Positions 9,997 to 48,950 of a stretch of 64,000 bases of DNA are shown here, one piece after another. Source of the stretch: Candidatus Amesbacteria bacterium RIFCSPLOWO2_01_FULL_48_25. GTDB lineage: Bacteria > Patescibacteriota > Microgenomatia > CAZETR01 > Amesbacteraceae. Where the stretch lies: contig MEXN01000005.1 in assembly GCA_001773695.1 (NCBI GenBank), positions 67,687-131,686 on the forward strand, written 5' to 3'. The notes under the pieces were generated by a model, which saw only the letters and a program-made list of their open reading frames with translations, was not told the origin of the DNA and searched no databases. The first letter of the stretch is position 1. Each line of letters opens with the position of its first letter. Both the position numbers and the translations under genes were made by a program.

Positions 9997-11385
9997 ATGT
10001 GGCCTATGACTTTGTATTTGAAATACCGGCCCCAAACTGTTCCTGAATTGGATTTGAAGGCTGTTCGGGAGTCCTTGGGAAAAACTCTTTCTAACAAAGA
10101 CCTGCCTGCCGGCAGGCAGAGTTTGCCACATGCGTGGCTGTTTTCGGGTCCGAGAGGCGTTGGAAAGACGAGTGCAGCTAGGGTGCTGGCTAAATACATT
10201 AATTGTCGGGGGAAGGAGAAGCCATGTAATAAGTGTGATTTATGTTTGGGGATTACGGCAGGGGCGTGTCCGGACGTAGTTGAGATTGATGCGGCCAGTA
10301 ACCGGGGTATAGATGAGATTAGGCAGTTGCGTGAAGGGGTGGGCTTGGCGCCCATGCAGGCTAAATTTAAGGTTTATATTATCGACGAGGTGCATATGTT
10401 GACGTCGGAGGCGGCTAATGCTTTGCTGAAAACATTGGAGGAGCCGCCGCCACATGTGATGTTTGTGCTGTGCACGACAGAGGCGGAGAAGTTGCCGGAG
10501 ACTGTGATCAGCCGATGTACGAGGGTGGTATTTTCTAAGCCTAGCCTAGAGGAGATTGTGGAGAAGCTGAAAAGAGTGGCGGGCGAGGAGAAATTGAAAG
10601 TTGATCATGGACAACTGATATTGATAGCTAAGGCGGCGAGGGGGAGTTTCAGGGATGCCATAAAAATGCTGGAACAGGTGATGCTGGGGGGAAAGTTGGA
10701 TGAAATAGAAGGGGCGGGGGAGTTTTTGGAGATGGGGACTGATGAGGCGCTTGCTTATGTCAATAAGCTGGCAGAGAGAGGAGTGAATTTGCGGACTTTT
10801 GTGGAAAAGTGTGTTGAGGAGCTGCGGGAGAAATTGCTGGAGACGAAGGATGTGAGTTTGATTTCTAAAATTGAGGAGTTGGAGAGAGCGTATGGGAGAA
10901 TGAAAGATGCGGCGGTGCCGCAATTGCCTTTAGAAATATTTGTGATTGAAAGGGCGGGAGAGTCTAAGAGTATAAGAGCTGGAGGGGAAAAGAAGAGTGA
11001 AGGACCAACAATAAAGAAACAAGAACCTGTGGTGGGTGGGAATTTGGGGGGGCATATGCTAGATGATGTGTTGTCACATTGGCCGGAGGTGATGAAGGCG
11101 GTTCGGCCAAAAAATCATTCGGTGGAAGCGCTCCTTCGTTCTACCAAACCTGTCGGGTTTGACGGGCGGGATTTGATTTTGGAGGCTTTTTACGAGTTTC
11201 ATAAAAAGCAGTTGGAGACTGAAAGGTGCCGAGTGATTGTAGAGCAGACGGTGAGTGAGGTATTGGGGGTGGATGTGGTGGCATTGAAGATGCAGCTGGG
11301 GCATGGTTCAACGGTTGCGAAGGCCACCGGCGGAGACGGAGGAGAGGAGTTAGTCAAGGCGGCAGAAGAAATATTTAAACGATGA
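9997..11385 (+). CDS. dnaX: DNA polymerase III subunit gamma/tau
   Basis: Walker A GPRGVGKTS, the zinc module CNKCDLC, and DEVHML...ALLKTLEEPP. Contains the in-frame 18-bp palindrome at 10102-10119, which encodes LPAGRQ. Confidence 0.9.
   Translation: MWPMTLYLKYRPQTVPELDLKAVRESLGKTLSNKDLPAGRQSLPHAWLFSGPRGVGKTSAARVLAKYINCRGKEKPCNKCDLCLGITAGACPDVVEIDAASNRGIDEIRQLREGVGLAPMQAKFKVYIIDEVHMLTSEAANALLKTLEEPPPHVMFVLCTTEAEKLPETVISRCTRVVFSKPSLEEIVEKLKRVAGEEKLKVDHGQLILIAKAARGSFRDAIKMLEQVMLGGKLDEIEGAGEFLEMGTDEALAYVNKLAERGVNLRTFVEKCVEELREKLLETKDVSLISKIEELERAYGRMKDAAVPQLPLEIFVIERAGESKSIRAGGEKKSEGPTIKKQEPVVGGNLGGHMLDDVLSHWPEVMKAVRPKNHSVEALLRSTKPVGFDGRDLILEAFYEFHKKQLETERCRVIVEQTVSEVLGVDVVALKMQLGHGSTVAKATGGDGGEELVKAAEEIFKR
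10102..10119. repeat. Perfect 18-bp palindrome CTGCCTGCCGGCAGGCAG (type A element), in-frame within dnaX
   Basis: Self-complementary. The same core with its 3' flank (..GCAGRRTTTGCC) recurs at 45150-45169. Confidence 0.8.
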
Positions 11386-45039: not shown

Positions 45040-45684
45040 TCAAGGAGATTGTACCAGATGGATCAGGCGGGCAGTAAGGGTATTGGCCGTGGCGCTTTCG
45101 GTACCCACGACGACAATTTTGGAGTTTACTTTGACGTCGGAAGCTTTGGCCTGCCTGCCGGCAGGCAGGATTTGCCCAGTGTATTTGGTGGCGGAAGTGA
45201 GTTTTATGGTCAGGGTCTGGTTTTTGTTATCGGTTACAGTGAGTTGGGAAGTCGTAACTTTAGTGATGTTTGTGAAGATGGCGCGGCGTTTGTCCGCCCG
45301 GGGAGTGGGAACGACCAGGAGGCGTTTGGCGGTCAGTTTGCCTTCGGCGTCGGCGTCACCCATTGCCAAAACGGTAGTGCCTTCTTTGAGGTCTGCAATG
45401 GTGCCGTCCTTACCACCGGTTAACTTGATGATTGAGTCGGTGGTGACGGTTATGGTTCTGGTAGCGTTGCCTGTGGTAGTCAGGGTGAGGGTGGCGTCGG
45501 ACTTGGAAGAGATAGTACCCAGGTAGGCACGTTTGGAAATTGCCTGTTTAATGAGGTTTAGCTCCTCGTCAACTTTCTTTTTGATGGAGTCACGGATGCC
45601 GCTGTCGGTGGCGGTTGGGGATTGGGCAGCAATTAGAGCAGGAGAGTTTAAGAGTAGGAGAGCTAGAGCCAGGAGAGTTTTCAT
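45040..45684 (-). CDS. Hypothetical secreted beta-rich protein
   Basis: Signal peptide MKTLLALALLLLNSPALIAAQ. Thr-rich repeats. Contains the in-frame type A palindrome, which encodes LPAGRQ. Confidence 0.5.
   Translation of the reverse strand: MKTLLALALLLLNSPALIAAQSPTATDSGIRDSIKKKVDEELNLIKQAISKRAYLGTISSKSDATLTLTTTGNATRTITVTTDSIIKLTGGKDGTIADLKEGTTVLAMGDADAEGKLTAKRLLVVPTPRADKRRAIFTNITKVTTSQLTVTDNKNQTLTIKLTSATKYTGQILPAGRQAKASDVKVNSKIVVVGTESATANTLTARLIHLVQSP
45150..45169. repeat. Perfect 20-bp palindrome CCTGCCTGCCGGCAGGCAGG (type A element) inside a secreted-protein gene
   Basis: Same core and 3' flank as 10102-10119. Confidence 0.8.
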
Positions 45685-46831: not shown

Positions 46832-48151
46832 ATGGCAGAATTAAAAGTGCCGCCGCATTCGATTGAGGCTGAGAAGTCGGTATTGGGGGCGTGTCTTTTG
46901 GATCGGGATGCGGTCGTAGAGGTGGTGGAGTTTTTGCGGCCGGAACACTTTTATGAGGACAAACACGGGAAGATATTTGAGTCGATAGTGGATTTATACC
47001 AGGCTCGTGAGCCAGTAGACGTGGTGTCCGTGGCGGAAACGCTGAAGAAGAAAAAGGCCTTGACGGCAGTCGGCGGGCAGGCGTATCTGACCGAACTGGT
47101 AAATAATGTGCCGACGGCGGCTCACGCCCAGCATTACGGACAACTGGTGCGGGACCATTTTACGAAGCGGCAGTTGATCTCGTCCGCTGCTCAGATTTCG
47201 GACATGTCGTTCGACGCATCTGCCGATGTGAAGCAGATTTTGGATACTGCCGAACAGAAAGTGTTTTCGCTGTCCCAGCAACATTTAAAGCAAGTGTTTG
47301 TGCCGGTTAAGGAAATTTTGTCCGAGTCATTTGATCGGCTGGACGAGCTGCATAAAACTGCTGGGGCGCTACGAGGAGTGCCGACGGGATTTTCTGATTT
47401 GGATGATACATTGGCTGGAATGCAGGATTCAAACCTTCTTATTCTGGCTGCCAGGCCAGGGGTGGGGAAGACGGCATTGGCTCTGAATATTGCTCAAAAC
47501 GCCGCATTTGGGTATAAGCAGCCGGTTGGATTTTTCTCACTTGAAATGAGCCGGGAGGAGTTGATGGATCGACTTTTGGTATCCCAGGCGGAAATTGACG
47601 CTTGGAAAATGAAAACAGGAAATTTGGAGGAAGGAGAATTTGACCGGTTGTCCCGGGCAATGGGGGAGCTATATGAGACACCGCTTTTTATAGATGATAC
47701 GCCGGGGGCGTCGATATTGGAGATGAGGACCAAGGCCAGACGACTACAGGCGGAGCACGGATTGAGGCTGGTCATTGTTGATTACTTGCAGCTAGCCCGA
47801 CCGGTTCGGAATTTGGATAATAGGGTGCAGGAAGTATCGGAAATTTCCCAGGGATTAAAAAATTTGGCTCGGGAACTCAAAGTGCCAGTACTGGCTTTGT
47901 CCCAATTGTCCAGGCAGGTGGAGTCCCGCGGGGTGAAAAGACCCCAGCTAGCTGATCTAAGGGAGTCGGGAGCGATTGAGCAGGATGCGGACGTGGTGAT
48001 GTTCATGTGGCGGGAAAACGATGAGGATTTGGAAAATATGACTTTGGATATTGCCAAACACAGAAACGGTCCACTACGCTCTCTTAAACTGCGCTTCCGT
48101 GGCGACAGGATCAAGTTTTATGGAGTGGAGGGGAAGAGGAAGGGGGAGTAA
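46832..48151 (+). CDS. dnaB: Replicative DNA helicase
   Basis: N-terminal PPHSIEAEKSVLGACL, Walker A ARPGVGKTALALNIA, Walker B LVIVDYLQL, and the arginine finger region. Its last 39 bp are duplicated at 48827-48865. Confidence 0.9.
   Translation: MAELKVPPHSIEAEKSVLGACLLDRDAVVEVVEFLRPEHFYEDKHGKIFESIVDLYQAREPVDVVSVAETLKKKKALTAVGGQAYLTELVNNVPTAAHAQHYGQLVRDHFTKRQLISSAAQISDMSFDASADVKQILDTAEQKVFSLSQQHLKQVFVPVKEILSESFDRLDELHKTAGALRGVPTGFSDLDDTLAGMQDSNLLILAARPGVGKTALALNIAQNAAFGYKQPVGFFSLEMSREELMDRLLVSQAEIDAWKMKTGNLEEGEFDRLSRAMGELYETPLFIDDTPGASILEMRTKARRLQAEHGLRLVIVDYLQLARPVRNLDNRVQEVSEISQGLKNLARELKVPVLALSQLSRQVESRGVKRPQLADLRESGAIEQDADVVMFMWRENDEDLENMTLDIAKHRNGPLRSLKLRFRGDRIKFYGVEGKRKGE
48113..48151. 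repeat. Direct repeat copy 1 (39 bp, the dnaB 3' end: AAGTTTTATGGAGTGGAGGGGAAGAGGAAGGGGGAGTAA)
   Basis: Matches 48827-48865 at 37 of 39 positions. Confidence 0.9.
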
Positions 48152-48164
48152 TTATTTGTCACCA

Positions 48165-48201
48165 TTGACAGGGTATGAAAGTATGATAGTATGAAAGTAT
48201 G
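48165..48201 (+). promoter_or_regulatory. Promoter/operator of the inserted TA cassette: TTGACA (48165-48170) -16- TAGTAT (48187-48192), with direct repeats GTATGAAAGTATG at 48173-48185 and 48189-48201
   Basis: Shares TTGACAGGGTA...TAGTAT-6nt-ATG geometry with the promoter at 18115-18150. Confidence 0.45.
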
Positions 48202-48441
48202 GATGATGTGATAGTAATGCTCCAACCCAGGGGACAGATAACGGTACCTAGGAGATTCAGGGTCAAATATGGTTTTGGTCAGGGCCCGGTAAGGGTGAGG
48301 GATGTGGGTGGTGGGGTGATGATAGAACCAGTGACGATTTTGAAATATCGAGTGAGAAGATATAGCGATCAGGAAGTGGACGAGTTTTTGAAGCTGGACG
48401 AAAAGGAAAGTCGGGAGCTGAAAAATGCGGGTATTATTTAA
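48199..48441 (+). CDS. AbrB/SpoVT-family antitoxin
   Basis: PRGQITVPRRFRVKYGF...VRV matches the swapped-hairpin motif. It overlaps the toxin start. Confidence 0.65.
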   Translation: MDDVIVMLQPRGQITVPRRFRVKYGFGQGPVRVRDVGGGVMIEPVTILKYRVRRYSDQEVDEFLKLDEKESRELKNAGII

Positions 48442-48865
48442 CGCCTCGGTAATTATTGCCGGGGTTGGTTCTCCGGCCGGAGGGTCTGGGGCGGCTTTAG
48501 AATTGGCAAAGCGAGGTAAGATCGTGGGGATTGTATCTGAACTTATTGTGAATGAAGTGGTAAGTCACGCCGGAAAGGTGAAAAAGGACGAAGTGGAAAT
48601 GCAAGCGATAGTTGTGGAGACTTTTCGTGAAGTAACTCTCGCTCCGAGTAAGTCGCAGGTTGAAAAACAAGCTGTTCATGTGACGGATCCCGGGGATGCT
48701 CATATTTTGGCGACCTACATGAATGAAAAATGCGACCTGCTTATCACTTTGGACAAGAAACACCTGTTGGTTTTGCAGGGTAAGTTAAAGGGGGTGGAGA
48801 TTTTGACCCCCGGCCAGCTTATTGGGAAGTTTTATAGAGTGGAGGGGAAGAGGAAGGGGGAGTAG
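48425..48865 (+). CDS. PIN-family toxin-like protein
   Basis: 146-aa ORF with acidic residues placed for a PIN-like fold (LFNASVII, DAHILAT, LITLDKK). Its C-terminal 13 residues are a copy of the DnaB tail. Confidence 0.55.
   Translation: MRVLFNASVIIAGVGSPAGGSGAALELAKRGKIVGIVSELIVNEVVSHAGKVKKDEVEMQAIVVETFREVTLAPSKSQVEKQAVHVTDPGDAHILATYMNEKCDLLITLDKKHLLVLQGKLKGVEILTPGQLIGKFYRVEGKRKGE
48827..48865. repeat. Direct repeat copy 2 (39 bp), immediately abutting the tRNA-Leu 3' end
   Basis: AAGTTTTATAGAGTGGAGGGGAAGAGGAAGGGGGAGTAG. Confidence 0.9.
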
Positions 48866-48950
48866 TGCCGGGGGAGGGACTCGAACCCACACGAGCGTTT
48901 CGGCTCACTGGTTTTTGAGACCAGCCTGTCTACCATTCCAGCACCCCGGC
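48866..48950 (-). tRNA. tRNA-Leu (anticodon CAA), class II with a long variable arm, no encoded CCA
   Basis: Folded by hand: a 7-bp acceptor stem (GCCGGGG/CCCCGGC) with discriminator A, a 3-bp D stem, the anticodon stem CUGGU/ACCAG with loop CUCAAAA, a variable arm GAGC-CGAAAC-GCUC, and the T arm GUGGG-UUCGAGU-CCCUC with one U-U mismatch. Confidence 0.8.

What the first reader, a model, noticed from the sequence alone, without database searches (positions are those of the whole stretch)
10102..10119. Perfect GC-rich palindrome CTGCCTGCCGGCAGGCAG sits in-frame in dnaX and recurs in a secreted-protein gene (45150-45169)
An 18-20 bp perfect palindrome with a shared 3' flank (..GCAGRRTTTGCC) occurs twice in this 64-kb window. 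Both copies lie inside ORFs and both are in-frame, each adding the same hexapeptide LPAGRQ, which reads the same on either strand. This is the behaviour described for Rickettsia palindromic elements: short selfish hairpin repeats tolerated inside coding sequences. The window is only about 48% GC, and the element is 72% GC.
Basis: partly seen in the sequence, partly recalled or inferred. Interest (0 to 1): 0.6.

Follow-up and report, generated by a model that had tools for sequence, protein, structure and literature searches.

The report
Tiny mobile palindrome inserted in genes
The two palindromes are copies of one 20-base hairpin sequence that occurs, letter for letter, in bacteria of many phyla, inserts even into essential genes without breaking them, and is the regular neighbour of a very small nuclease gene that sits at tRNA genes, a pairing I could not find described in the papers I could search.

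Summary
CTGCCTGCCGGCAGGCAG lies at 10102-10119 in dnaX and at 45151-45168 in a secreted DUF5666 protein gene. Both copies read LPAGRQ in frame.

Orthologue alignments show both are lineage-specific insertions of 21 nt (7 aa), not native sequence. The unit is the 20-mer CCTGCCTGCCGGCAGGCAGG ("PAL").

- **Distribution:** PAL occurs exactly in at least 120 genomes, mainly Patescibacteria and Bacteroidota, with fewer from Omnitrophota, Planctomycetota and others, and in 35 viral-contig stretches. Two composition-matched control palindromes gave 0 hits.
- **Recurrence:** In dnaX it lies at the same codon in four separate Amesbacteria clades, and each has a sister without it.
- **Other hosts:** It also sits in frame in FtsK, GatB and a dehydratase.
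- **Partner gene:** Among 80 metagenome loci chosen only for an ~80-aa GIY-YIG nuclease gene, 27 carry exact PAL and 29 a near-copy within 130 nt upstream. There PAL splits a loop of a redundant tRNA fragment. Comparison with the intact tRNA beside it shows an exact 20-nt insertion with no target duplication.

Best reading: these are orphan copies of a very small mobile palindrome whose cognate enzyme is this mini GIY-YIG nuclease. Mobilisation by the nuclease is inferred, not shown. It behaves like Rickettsia palindromic elements but is not one. No description was found in the searchable literature.

The parts
10101..10120 (.). PAL copy 1: CCTGCCTGCCGGCAGGCAGa, 19/20 match to the 20-nt element, with a perfect 18-mer at 10102-10119. 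It lies in dnaX, frame LPAGRQ.
   Evidence: Searches show the sequence. Searches show that orthologues lack 21 nt here.
10099..10122 (+). Codons GAC CTG CCT GCC GGC AGG CAG AGT. This is the stretch that holds the 21-nt (7-aa) net insertion between K-D and L-P-H-A-W-L-F, just before strand beta1 and the Walker A motif of DnaX. The exact ends are ambiguous by 1-2 nt.
   Evidence: codon alignment with empty-site sisters. (alignment to E. coli gamma/tau structures).
9997..11385 (+). dnaX (DNA polymerase III gamma/tau, 462 aa), host gene of copy 1.
45150..45169 (.). PAL copy 2: CCTGCCTGCCGGCAGGCAGG, 20/20. It is read on the - strand as LPAGRQ.
45149..45170 (-). Stretch that holds the 21-nt (7-aa) net insertion, TKYTG[QILPAGR]QAKASD, absent from all 38 other aligned orthologues. 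The exact ends are ambiguous by 1 nt.
45040..45684 (-). Secreted DUF5666-like protein gene (214 aa), host gene of copy 2.

Best explanation
Both palindromes are orphan copies of a 20-nt mobile element, 5'-CCTGCCTGCCGGCAGGCAGG-3' (PAL). As a single strand it folds into an 8-bp hairpin with a CCGG loop.

PAL enters DNA as a discrete 20-nt block with no target-site duplication, usually 3' of an A. Selection then keeps only harmless copies. These are found in intergenic DNA, in redundant tRNA fragments, and inside genes. The genic copies are rare events whose net length is a multiple of three (here 20+1 nt) and which fall in a length-tolerant loop. They are nearly always in the one frame that reads LPAGRQ and avoids cysteine.

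The cognate protein is an ~80-aa stand-alone GIY-YIG nuclease (subfamily motif REKYLKSG). Its gene sits next to tRNA genes, between an intact tRNA and a redundant partial copy of that tRNA, and the redundant copy carries PAL in one of its loops.

I infer that this nuclease recognises PAL, either as a duplex palindrome bound by a dimer or as an extruded hairpin or cruciform, and makes the nicks or breaks through which PAL is copied or ligated into new sites. The window itself has no such gene. If the inference is right, the enzyme is encoded elsewhere in the genome or acted in the past.

Shown: the insertion status, the exact 20-nt unit, the cross-phylum identity, recurrent insertion at one dnaX site, and the PAL/GIY-YIG/tRNA association. 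Inferred: that the nuclease binds or cuts PAL and mobilises it, and the chemistry of insertion.
For: 1. Insertion, not native sequence.
- 114 of 118 DnaX orthologues lack the 7 aa.
- Sister pairs give empty sites: P0015 AAG AGT|TTG and P0086 AAA AAT|GTG, at 85.5% and 80.6% nucleotide identity to the filled alleles.
- All 38 other aligned orthologues of the secreted protein lack the 7 aa.

2. Recent or maintained.
- In the four dnaX lineages that carry PAL, synonymous sites in the flanking codons are scrambled, but the 18-nt core is identical in three and differs by one base in the fourth.
- The four lie in four separate clades of the tree.

3. Discrete 20-nt unit.
- In 127 sites from 120 genomes, 122 share the full 20-mer and conservation stops there.
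- In 19 of 21 nuclease cassettes compared (the other two gave no usable match), the PAL-bearing tRNA fragment and the intact tRNA beside it differ by exactly 20 nt, with no duplication or deletion. The base before PAL is A in all 19.

4. Not chance.
- About 0.5 hits are expected in 596 Gb at equal base frequencies. At least 120 stretches were found, mostly in genomes of 31-50% G+C.
- Viral contigs gave 35 stretches for PAL and 0 for each of two control palindromes of the same composition.

5. Partner gene.
- Of 80 metagenome loci selected only by similarity to the GIY-YIG protein, 27 have exact PAL and 29 have PAL with up to 4 edits within 130 nt upstream.
- A further 11 exact copies lie elsewhere in these loci. 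At least seven of them sit in redundant tRNA copies just downstream of the ORF: T-loop, variable region, D-loop or position 9.
- The functional tRNA next to the ORF is PAL-free.
- Starting from PAL instead, 4 of about 172 PAL sites have the nuclease ORF starting 20-41 nt away, and 7 of 120 genome loci of about 8 kb or less hold the subfamily.
- In L061, PAL plus the GIY-YIG domain are inserted together, in frame, in an hsdS gene.
- The named taxa of the nuclease subfamily (more than 7000 clusters) match those of the PAL hits.

6. Tolerated in genes.
- PAL is in frame in FtsK, GatB and an RfbB-like dehydratase.
- 8 of 9 independent genic sites use the LPAGRQ frame.

7. Real DNA.
- The identical DnaX protein is on at least 24 contigs from separate ENA and JGI samples.
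- PAL is also in cultured isolates and long-read chromosomes.
Against: - No GIY-YIG gene of this subfamily was found in the window or in about 128 kb of Amesbacteria DNA examined, which includes the window and its overlapping extensions. Co-occurrence in the source genome is untested.
- 24 of 80 nuclease loci show no PAL within 130 nt upstream. Some of them carry it downstream, or carry other hairpins.
- The spacing from PAL to the start codon varies (11-51 nt) and the DNA between them is host tRNA sequence. PAL and the ORF are therefore not one contiguous transposon.
- An 80-aa catalytic domain has no obvious DNA-binding module to read 20 bp.
- GIY-YIG enzymes hydrolyse DNA and do not transfer strands, so host ligation or repair must be invoked.
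- The genic copies are 21 nt, not 20 nt. The origin of the extra base is unexplained. Four dnaX lineages sharing the same +1 fits transfer of an already in-frame allele as well as it fits four de novo hits.
- My impression that PAL sits at the tip of host hairpins did not survive a control.
Confidence: 0.6

Rival explanations
1. PAL is the homing target rather than the cargo. The mini GIY-YIG gene is a free-standing homing endonuclease gene that recognises PAL and inserts itself, together with a duplicated tRNA segment, a few tens of bases away. PAL spreads by some other route, such as microhomology-templated repair from existing copies or recombination of already filled alleles between relatives.
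For: - PAL and the ORF are separated by 11-51 nt of host tRNA sequence, as with enzymes that cut at a distance from their binding site.
- All four filled dnaX alleles share the same net +21 nt at one codon. This is easier to explain if an in-frame allele was passed on by gene conversion.
- Flanks are enriched for A..T, in 31 of 127 sites against roughly 8% expected, which is compatible with use of microhomology.
Against: - A bare target site has no drive of its own, yet it is identical across many phyla and occurs far from any nuclease gene.
- The functional tRNA copy in each cassette has no PAL, so PAL is not needed for the ORF to sit at a tRNA.
- No co-conversion tract is evident around the dnaX site, though the region is too variable to judge.
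Confidence: 0.17
2. PAL is an enzyme-independent selfish hairpin. It is copied into new sites by host replication or repair, for example template switching or snap-back synthesis at palindromes. Its presence beside GIY-YIG genes only reflects a shared liking for tRNA-like DNA and for neutral pseudo-tRNA fragments.
For: - Most PAL copies have no nuclease gene within the roughly 8-kb stretch fetched.
- The window has none.
- Perfect palindromes are known hot spots for template switching (general knowledge).
Against: - Template switching makes palindromes out of local sequence. It does not produce one fixed 20-mer in many phyla.
- Control palindromes of the same composition are absent.
- 56 of 80 independently chosen nuclease loci carry PAL or a near-copy within 130 nt, and PAL travels with the GIY-YIG domain into hsdS in L061.
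- A strictly conserved sequence points to a sequence-reading protein.
Confidence: 0.12
3. PAL serves the host. It could be a protein-binding site, a recombination or uptake signal, a terminator, or a structural peptide (LPAGRQ) selected in each protein.
For: - The sequence is strictly conserved.
- The same reading frame is used in 8 of 9 genic sites.
- Most copies are intergenic.
Against: - Presence and absence alternate among close relatives in unrelated proteins: DnaX, FtsK, GatB, a secreted protein and a dehydratase.
- PAL interrupts tRNA-derived sequences only in redundant copies.
- Density in the source genome is low, 2 copies in 81 kb.
- The frame bias is explained more simply by avoidance of the two cysteine-containing frames.
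Confidence: 0.05
4. Artefact or chance: an adaptor or chimeric sequence introduced during library preparation or assembly, or two chance matches.
For: Most hits are metagenome-assembled genomes. Several contigs end close to PAL.
Against: - 0 of 100 shuffles gave two copies.
- The identical protein is on at least 24 contigs from independent samples and pipelines.
- PAL is present in cultured isolates and long-read chromosomes.
- It preserves the reading frame in essential genes.
- Point variants exist, such as LPTGRQ in P0012.
- PAL does not match any sequencing adaptor that I know of (from memory, not tested).
Confidence: 0.01

Closest known systems
Rickettsia palindromic elements (RPE)
   Same: Selfish palindromic repeats that insert in frame into protein-coding genes, including essential ones. 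They add a short peptide in tolerated surface regions, and they also occur in RNA genes and intergenic DNA (from my own knowledge of Ogata et al. 2000, 2002).
   Different: RPEs are about 100-150 nt, form lineage-specific families in Rickettsia, and have no known cognate enzyme. PAL is 20 nt, is identical across many phyla and in viral contigs, and has a candidate partner nuclease gene.
REP / REPIN elements with RAYT transposases
   Same: Short (20-40 nt) GC-rich palindromes dispersed in the genome, which cannot move on their own. A small nuclease gene is physically flanked by its own repeats and is thought to mobilise them in trans (PMC3116915, PMC2817692, PMC3733652).
   Different: - The REP enzyme is an HUH/Y1 transposase; here it is a GIY-YIG hydrolase of about 80 aa.
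- REPs carry GTAG or CGTC tags, are extragenic, reach hundreds of copies, differ between species and are inherited vertically.
- PAL has no tag, enters ORFs and tRNA-derived DNA, is at low density in this genome, and has the same sequence across phyla.
Small dispersed repeats (SDR) of Nostocaceae ('very small mobile repeated elements', Elhai et al. 2008)
   Same: Mobile-looking repeats of only 21-27 nt, some with palindromic cores. They are recognised by presence or absence at orthologous sites, and the enzyme is unknown (my recollection of the paper; cited in PMC5861425 and PMC3116915).
   Different: SDRs are reported only in one cyanobacterial family (PMC5861425). No nuclease partner or tRNA cassette is described. 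Sequence relation to PAL was not tested, because the paper is not held in the library.
GC clusters and palindromic elements of fungal mitochondria
   Same: GC-rich palindromes in DNA of different composition. They are optional between strains, are sometimes in frame inside genes (yeast var1), and co-reside with GIY-YIG or LAGLIDADG endonuclease genes (general knowledge; compare PMC7218506).
   Different: They are organellar, longer (30-60 nt), form lineage-specific families, and are often flanked by short duplications.
Free-standing GIY-YIG homing endonuclease genes (phage T4 Seg proteins, e.g. SegB in the tRNA gene cluster)
   Same: A GIY-YIG gene inserted between or next to conserved genes, including tRNA genes, and spread by break-induced gene conversion (PMC2988022).
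   Different: Seg and I-TevI enzymes carry C-terminal DNA-binding modules and have no dispersed cognate palindrome. The protein here is a bare catalytic domain. It comes with a duplicated tRNA segment and with PAL.

Membership tests
Rickettsia palindromic elements (RPE) | Element length about 100-150 nt with a family consensus | tested here: not met
   The conserved unit is 20 nt and conservation ends at its borders.
Rickettsia palindromic elements (RPE) | Confined to Rickettsia and close relatives | tested here: not met
   The source is Candidatus Amesbacteria. Hits come from Patescibacteria, Bacteroidota, Omnitrophota, Planctomycetota and others.
Rickettsia palindromic elements (RPE) | In-frame insertion into ORFs, absent from orthologues | tested here: met
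   DnaX and the DUF5666 protein; FtsK, GatB and a dehydratase.
REP/REPIN-RAYT systems | Short GC-rich palindrome able to form a hairpin | tested here: met
   8-bp stem with a CCGG loop, -8 kcal/mol as single-stranded DNA.
REP/REPIN-RAYT systems | GTAG or CGTC tag at one end of the palindrome | tested here: not met
   No conserved bases outside the 20-mer. GTAG precedes PAL only in one viral contig.
REP/REPIN-RAYT systems | Cognate HUH/Y1 (RAYT) transposase gene flanked by the repeats | tested here: not met
   No protein family recurred in more than 5 of the 120 PAL loci (ORFs under 90 aa excluded, families not annotated). The gene found next to PAL is a GIY-YIG nuclease, PF01541. A genome-wide search for RAYT genes was not possible.
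REP/REPIN-RAYT systems | Extragenic, with more than 100 copies per genome | tested here: not met
   Both window copies are genic. There are 2 copies in 81 kb of the source genome, and about 4% of loci hold a second copy. Whole-genome counts were not obtainable.
Free-standing GIY-YIG homing endonuclease genes (applies to the partner gene, not to PAL) | GIY-YIG catalytic domain | tested here: met
   PF01541, E = 6e-15 to 8e-14.
Free-standing GIY-YIG homing endonuclease genes (applies to the partner gene, not to PAL) | Separate DNA-binding domain (NUMOD, zinc finger or helix-turn-helix) that gives site specificity | tested here: not met
   The proteins are 75-88 aa and the domain covers nearly the whole length.
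Free-standing GIY-YIG homing endonuclease genes (applies to the partner gene, not to PAL) | Cleaves the allele that lacks the gene and is copied into it | not testable with these tools
   Needs biochemistry or crosses. The only indirect sign is the variety of tRNA genes occupied: Arg, Leu, Lys, Phe, Met, Asn, Gly and Thr.
Small dispersed repeats (SDR) of Nostocaceae | 21-27-nt repeat families defined in Nostoc genomes | not tested
   The paper (PMC2527708) is not held in the library.

The most novel reading that the evidence does not exclude
PAL and the ~80-aa GIY-YIG nuclease together form a previously undescribed two-part mobile system. PAL would be a 20-nt hairpin, among the smallest mobile DNA units known. 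It would be inserted without target duplication and mobilised in trans by a bare GIY-YIG catalytic domain. The nuclease gene rides on tRNA genes by duplicating part of them. The pair has spread horizontally through many bacterial phyla and viral contigs with the 20-mer kept letter-perfect.
Probability: 0.4. Interest if true: 0.85.

Novelty: new variant of a known kind. Interest (0 to 1): 0.78.

Why it matters
- **Scale and reach.** If the reading holds, this is a mobile element an order of magnitude smaller than typical MITEs, with one sequence shared across very distant bacteria. That raises the question of how a 20-mer is kept identical and how it crosses between phyla.
- **A testable enzyme-site pair.** The pairing with an ~80-aa nuclease resembles REP and RAYT but uses different chemistry. 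It could yield a very compact nuclease specific for a sequence or a DNA structure.
- **Annotation.** PAL adds LPAGRQ to essential proteins such as DnaX, FtsK and GatB, and it creates tRNA gene fragments. Annotators and phylogeneticists working with candidate-phyla and Bacteroidota genomes should recognise both. The many short 'hypothetical proteins' containing ...PAGRQ... may be translations of this hairpin, though I did not test that.
- **Strain marker.** Recurrent insertion at one dnaX codon gives a natural marker of strain history in Amesbacteria.

Tried and rejected
1. **PAL sits at the tip of pre-existing host hairpins.** This was suggested by eye. With PAL removed, 20% of sites fall in a loop closed by at least 4 bp, against 18% of intergenic-like control positions (Fisher p = 0.5). 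Rejected. The flanks are only slightly more structured overall (p = 0.004).
2. **A protein family encoded next to PAL in the 120 genome loci.** All-against-all clustering of ORFs of 90 aa or more found nothing in more than 5 loci. The nuclease was missed at first because it is shorter than the 90-aa cut-off.
3. **Known RNA families.** Rfam at gathering thresholds found only tRNAs. Nothing was found at PAL.
4. **Literature.** Searches used the DNA strings, the peptides (LPAGRQ and others), and combinations of GIY-YIG with tRNA, palindrome, REP or RAYT. The GIY-YIG superfamily survey was also checked. None describes PAL or the cassette.
5. **Cultured phages and plasmids as vectors.** The nuclease subfamily is rare there, in 16 phage records and 2 plasmid records at 39-47% identity. 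PAL context was not examined in those records.
6. **Extending the source contig by about 17 kb to find more copies or a nuclease gene.** Neither was found.
7. **Frame restoration by removing PAL, as a sign of RNA-level excision.** A few loci gain long ORFs after a 20- or 22-nt deletion. These are high-GC or ambiguous cases, and I do not regard them as evidence.
8. **A co-conversion tract around the dnaX site in sister pairs.** The upstream region is too variable to tell.
Full report
**1. The observation**

The 18-mer CTGCCTGCCGGCAGGCAG is present at 10102-10119 and 45151-45168. Even with three mismatches allowed these are the only two matches in the window. Dinucleotide-preserving shuffles expect 0.02, and none of 100 gave two.

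Copy 1 lies in the + strand dnaX ORF 9997-11385 and is read CTG CCT GCC GGC AGG CAG = LPAGRQ. Copy 2 lies in the - strand ORF 45040-45684, a 214-aa protein with a signal-peptide-like N-terminus and a weak DUF5666 match. It gives the same peptide, because the palindrome reads the same on both strands in this frame.

The window is 47.8% G+C but very skewed, with G 32.4% and C 15.4% on the + strand. A sequence with eight C in one arm is therefore foreign to the local composition. The 18-mer is 78% G+C, not 72%.

**2. Both copies are insertions**

The source is Candidatus Amesbacteria (Microgenomates, candidate phyla radiation). The identical DnaX is encoded on at least 24 contigs from independent ENA and JGI samples, which rules out an assembly artefact.

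In an alignment of DnaX orthologues the segment LPAGRQS is missing from 114 of 118 proteins. The usual sequence runs ...KD-LPHAWLFSGPRG.... The insertion is 7 aa (21 nt). It lies just before strand beta1 and the Walker A motif, in a stretch whose length also differs in E. coli gamma/tau (LSLGRIHHAYLF).

The secreted protein has TKYTG[QILPAGR]QAKASD where all 38 other aligned orthologues have TKYTG-KTKASD. This is again +7 aa.

**3. One dnaX codon has been hit, or converted, repeatedly**

Three other DnaX proteins carry the element at exactly this position: P0012 (LPTGRQG), P0013 (LPAGRQG) and P0030 (LPAGRQD). They are 53-57% identical to the window protein.

In a neighbour-joining tree the four lie in four separate clades, and each has a sister without the element. 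DNA of the sister pairs gives the empty sites. P0015 has AAG AGT|TTG CCG against P0012's AAA AAC [CTG CCT ACC GGC AGG CAG] GGT TTG CCG. P0086 has AAA AAT|GTG against P0030's AAA AAC [CTG...CAG] GAT ATT.

Third codon positions around the site differ freely between the four lineages. The 18-nt core is identical in three and differs by one base in the fourth. That is incompatible with neutral descent from one old insertion.

It means one of three things: recent independent insertions at a hot spot, transfer of a filled allele between lineages, or active homogenisation. I cannot tell these apart. The shared net length of 21 nt (20+1) favours transfer of an already in-frame allele, or a strong selective filter.

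**4. The unit is a 20-mer found across many phyla**

Each came from a different genome:
- about 37 Patescibacteria
- 38 Bacteroidota, including cultured isolates (Winogradskyella, Flagellimonas, Longitalea, Flavivirga, Aquiflexum, Agriterribacter, Aestuariivivens) and long-read chromosomes
- 9 Omnitrophota
- about 12 labelled Gammaproteobacteria or Pseudomonadota
- 7 Planctomycetota or PVC group
- smaller numbers of Nitrospirota, Desulfobacterota, Bdellovibrionota, Elusimicrobia, Chloroflexi and others

At equal base frequencies the expectation for the 20-mer is about 0.5 hits. It is far lower at the 31-50% G+C of most of these loci.

In 122 of 127 sites the 18-mer is flanked by C and G, giving CCTGCCTGCCGGCAGGCAGG. 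Beyond that nothing is conserved except a bias at the next position: A..T 31, G..G 17, C..C 16.

Viral contigs hold 35 stretches (45 sites), and one 29.5-kb contig has six copies. Two controls of identical composition gave no hit at all: the same arms swapped (GGCAGGCAGGCCTGCCTGCC) and shuffled arms.

Sites are mostly intergenic. The median open frame spanning them is 261 nt, against 927 nt for random positions in the same loci. Clear genic cases exist in FtsK, GatB and an RfbB-like dehydratase. Eight of nine independent genic sites use the LPAGRQ frame. The other two frames would encode cysteine (PACRQAG, CLPAGR), so I read this bias as selection.

**5. The partner gene**

Several hits interrupt tRNA-like sequences, and removing 20 nt restores a normal tRNA sequence. 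In L038, L109 and the viral locus L159 the interrupted piece is only a 5' fragment. It is followed by a ~80-aa ORF, and in L038 and L109 that ORF is followed by an intact copy of the same tRNA. The ORF is a stand-alone GIY-YIG catalytic domain (PF01541).

I then took the reverse route. Eighty metagenome loci were collected only by similarity to this protein. Twenty-seven have exact PAL and 29 have PAL with one to four edits within 130 nt upstream of the start codon.

In nearly all loci with enough flank, an intact tRNA follows the ORF within a few bases. The tRNAs include Arg, Leu, Lys, Phe, Met, Asn, Gly and Thr.

In 19 cassettes the upstream fragment could be compared with the intact copy. 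PAL is exactly 20 nt, with no duplication and no deletion, and follows an A. It sits at tRNA positions 9, 14-15 or 20-23, which are the borders of the D-loop.

A mirror form also exists: intact tRNA, then the ORF, then a 3' fragment or second copy of the tRNA. In that form PAL is in the T-loop, the variable region or the D-loop.

The rule is that the redundant tRNA copy next to the nuclease gene carries PAL and the working copy does not.

In L061, PAL and the GIY-YIG domain sit together, in frame, in the middle of a type I restriction specificity gene. The pair is therefore not restricted to tRNA genes.

The subfamily is large, with more than 7000 clusters at 90% identity. Its named members come from WWE3, Paceibacteria, Yanofskybacteria, Falkowbacteria, Flavobacteriales, Chitinophagaceae, Cytophagales, Omnitrophica, Chlorobi and WOR-3. 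These are the same groups that hold PAL.

Among the 120 PAL-selected genome loci, 7 contain the subfamily. In 3 of them, plus one viral locus, it lies 20-41 nt from PAL.

**6. What this means for the window**

The window has no gene of this subfamily, and neither does about 128 kb of Amesbacteria DNA examined, which includes the window and its overlapping extensions. It has a single, intact tRNA. The two copies are therefore orphans, like most PAL copies elsewhere.

The most economical reading has four parts:
- PAL is a very small non-autonomous mobile element.
- Its cognate protein is the mini GIY-YIG nuclease.
- Insertions are frequent in tRNA-like DNA near the gene, and they persist only where harmless.
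- Rare events with a net length of 3n in tolerant protein loops, in the cysteine-free frame, survive in genes such as dnaX.

How a hydrolytic nuclease would move a hairpin is not known. Two schemes fit the absence of target duplication. In the first, the self-folded 20-mer is ligated into a nick and fixed at the next replication. In the second, PAL is copied from an existing copy into a nuclease-made break, using the few bases of microhomology at its borders. The second scheme would also explain occasional extra bases and the A..T flanks. Both are inference.

**7. Alternatives**

PAL might instead be the landing mark for the nuclease gene. The variable spacing of 11-51 nt, filled with host tRNA sequence, shows that they are not one contiguous transposon. 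Or the association might be indirect.

I give the mobilisation model 0.6, the target-only model 0.17 and the enzyme-independent model 0.12. A host function (0.05) fits poorly with alternating presence and absence in unrelated proteins. Artefact or chance (0.01) is excluded by the points in sections 1, 2 and 4.

**8. Comparison with known elements**

The closest logic is REP/REPIN with RAYT, a dispersed palindrome plus a nuclease gene flanked by it. The differences are large:
- The enzyme class differs (GIY-YIG, not HUH).
- There is no GTAG or CGTC tag.
- The element enters genes.
- Its sequence is shared across phyla instead of being species-specific.

The 21-27-nt small dispersed repeats of Nostocaceae and the GC clusters of fungal mitochondria are further analogues.

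I found no paper describing this 20-mer, the LPAGRQ insertions or the tRNA-GIY-YIG-palindrome cassette. The library lacks most subscription journals, so prior description cannot be excluded.

**9. Verdict**

The finding is real and more interesting than proposed. The insertion status, the unit, its distribution and the gene association are shown by computation. The mechanism is a hypothesis that whole-genome co-occurrence counts and a simple cleavage assay would decide.

Noticed in passing
window 1-64000: Extreme strand asymmetry over the whole window. G is 32.4% and C 15.4% on the + strand, giving a GC skew of 0.36 (0.25-0.45 in every 4-kb bin). Third codon positions of + strand ORFs are 40% G and 12% C. 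About two thirds of long ORFs are on the + strand.
   Followed up: partly
window 48113-48150 and 48827-48864 (with ORFs 48199-48441 and 48425-48865, and tRNA-Leu at 48865-48950 on the - strand): A 38-nt direct repeat (97% identical) duplicates the 3' end of dnaB. Between the copies lie two small overlapping ORFs of 80 and 146 aa, and the second ends with a copy of DnaB's C-terminus (FYRVEGKRKGE against FYGVEGKRKGE). It looks like a two-gene cassette, perhaps toxin-antitoxin, inserted at the end of dnaB with a target duplication. It was not checked against protein families.
   Followed up: partly
L011, L015, L016, L032, L041 (two copies), L111, L113; L053, L063, L071: Other perfect palindromes recur in unrelated genomes that also hold PAL. 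TCCGCCAGCTGGCGGA occurs 8 times in 7 loci. CCCGATAGCTATCGGG occurs in 3 Bacteroidota loci. They may be sister elements with their own partner enzymes.
   Followed up: no
L115 1893-2300: A tandem array with a period of 44 nt, of eight units. Seven of them centre on the 20-nt perfect palindrome GGACAGGTCGCGACCTGTCC. The array starts about 25 nt downstream of a PAL copy in a Bacteroidetes genome.
   Followed up: no
L061 2853-4892: A type I restriction-modification specificity (hsdS) gene carries PAL (read PACRQAG) and a complete GIY-YIG domain in frame between its two target-recognition halves.
   Followed up: partly
L181, L194, L201, L164, L203, L186; L125 (P0012 dnaX): The same single-base variant of PAL, CCTGCCTACCGGCAGGCAGG (equal to ...CCGGTAGGCAGG on the other strand), recurs at several independent sites, including the dnaX copy of P0012 (L186 carries one further change). 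It is either a propagating sub-family or a mutation hot spot next to the central CCGG.
   Followed up: no
L200, L226, L165: Nuclease loci without PAL carry different hairpins at the equivalent place in the tRNA fragment: GTAGCACGTCTGACGTGCTCAC, twice in L200 and once in L226, and CCGCCTTCGGCGG in L165. This hints that nuclease lineages may each have their own hairpin.
   Followed up: no
L148, L155, L156 (viral contig IMGVR_UViG_3300037242_000417, 29.5 kb): Six PAL copies lie on one contig. Several are embedded in longer direct and inverted repeats, for example cccgtag[PAL]gggcggcacaa twice, and ccaccctcg[PAL]cagaaaacgcgagg with its reverse complement.
   Followed up: no
PMC1564403 (GIY-YIG superfamily survey): The survey notes a prokaryotic Slx1-like GIY-YIG domain fused to a TrmH-type methyltransferase that modifies G18 in the tRNA D-loop. 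The D-loop is the same tRNA region where PAL sits in the cassettes. This may be coincidence.
   Followed up: no
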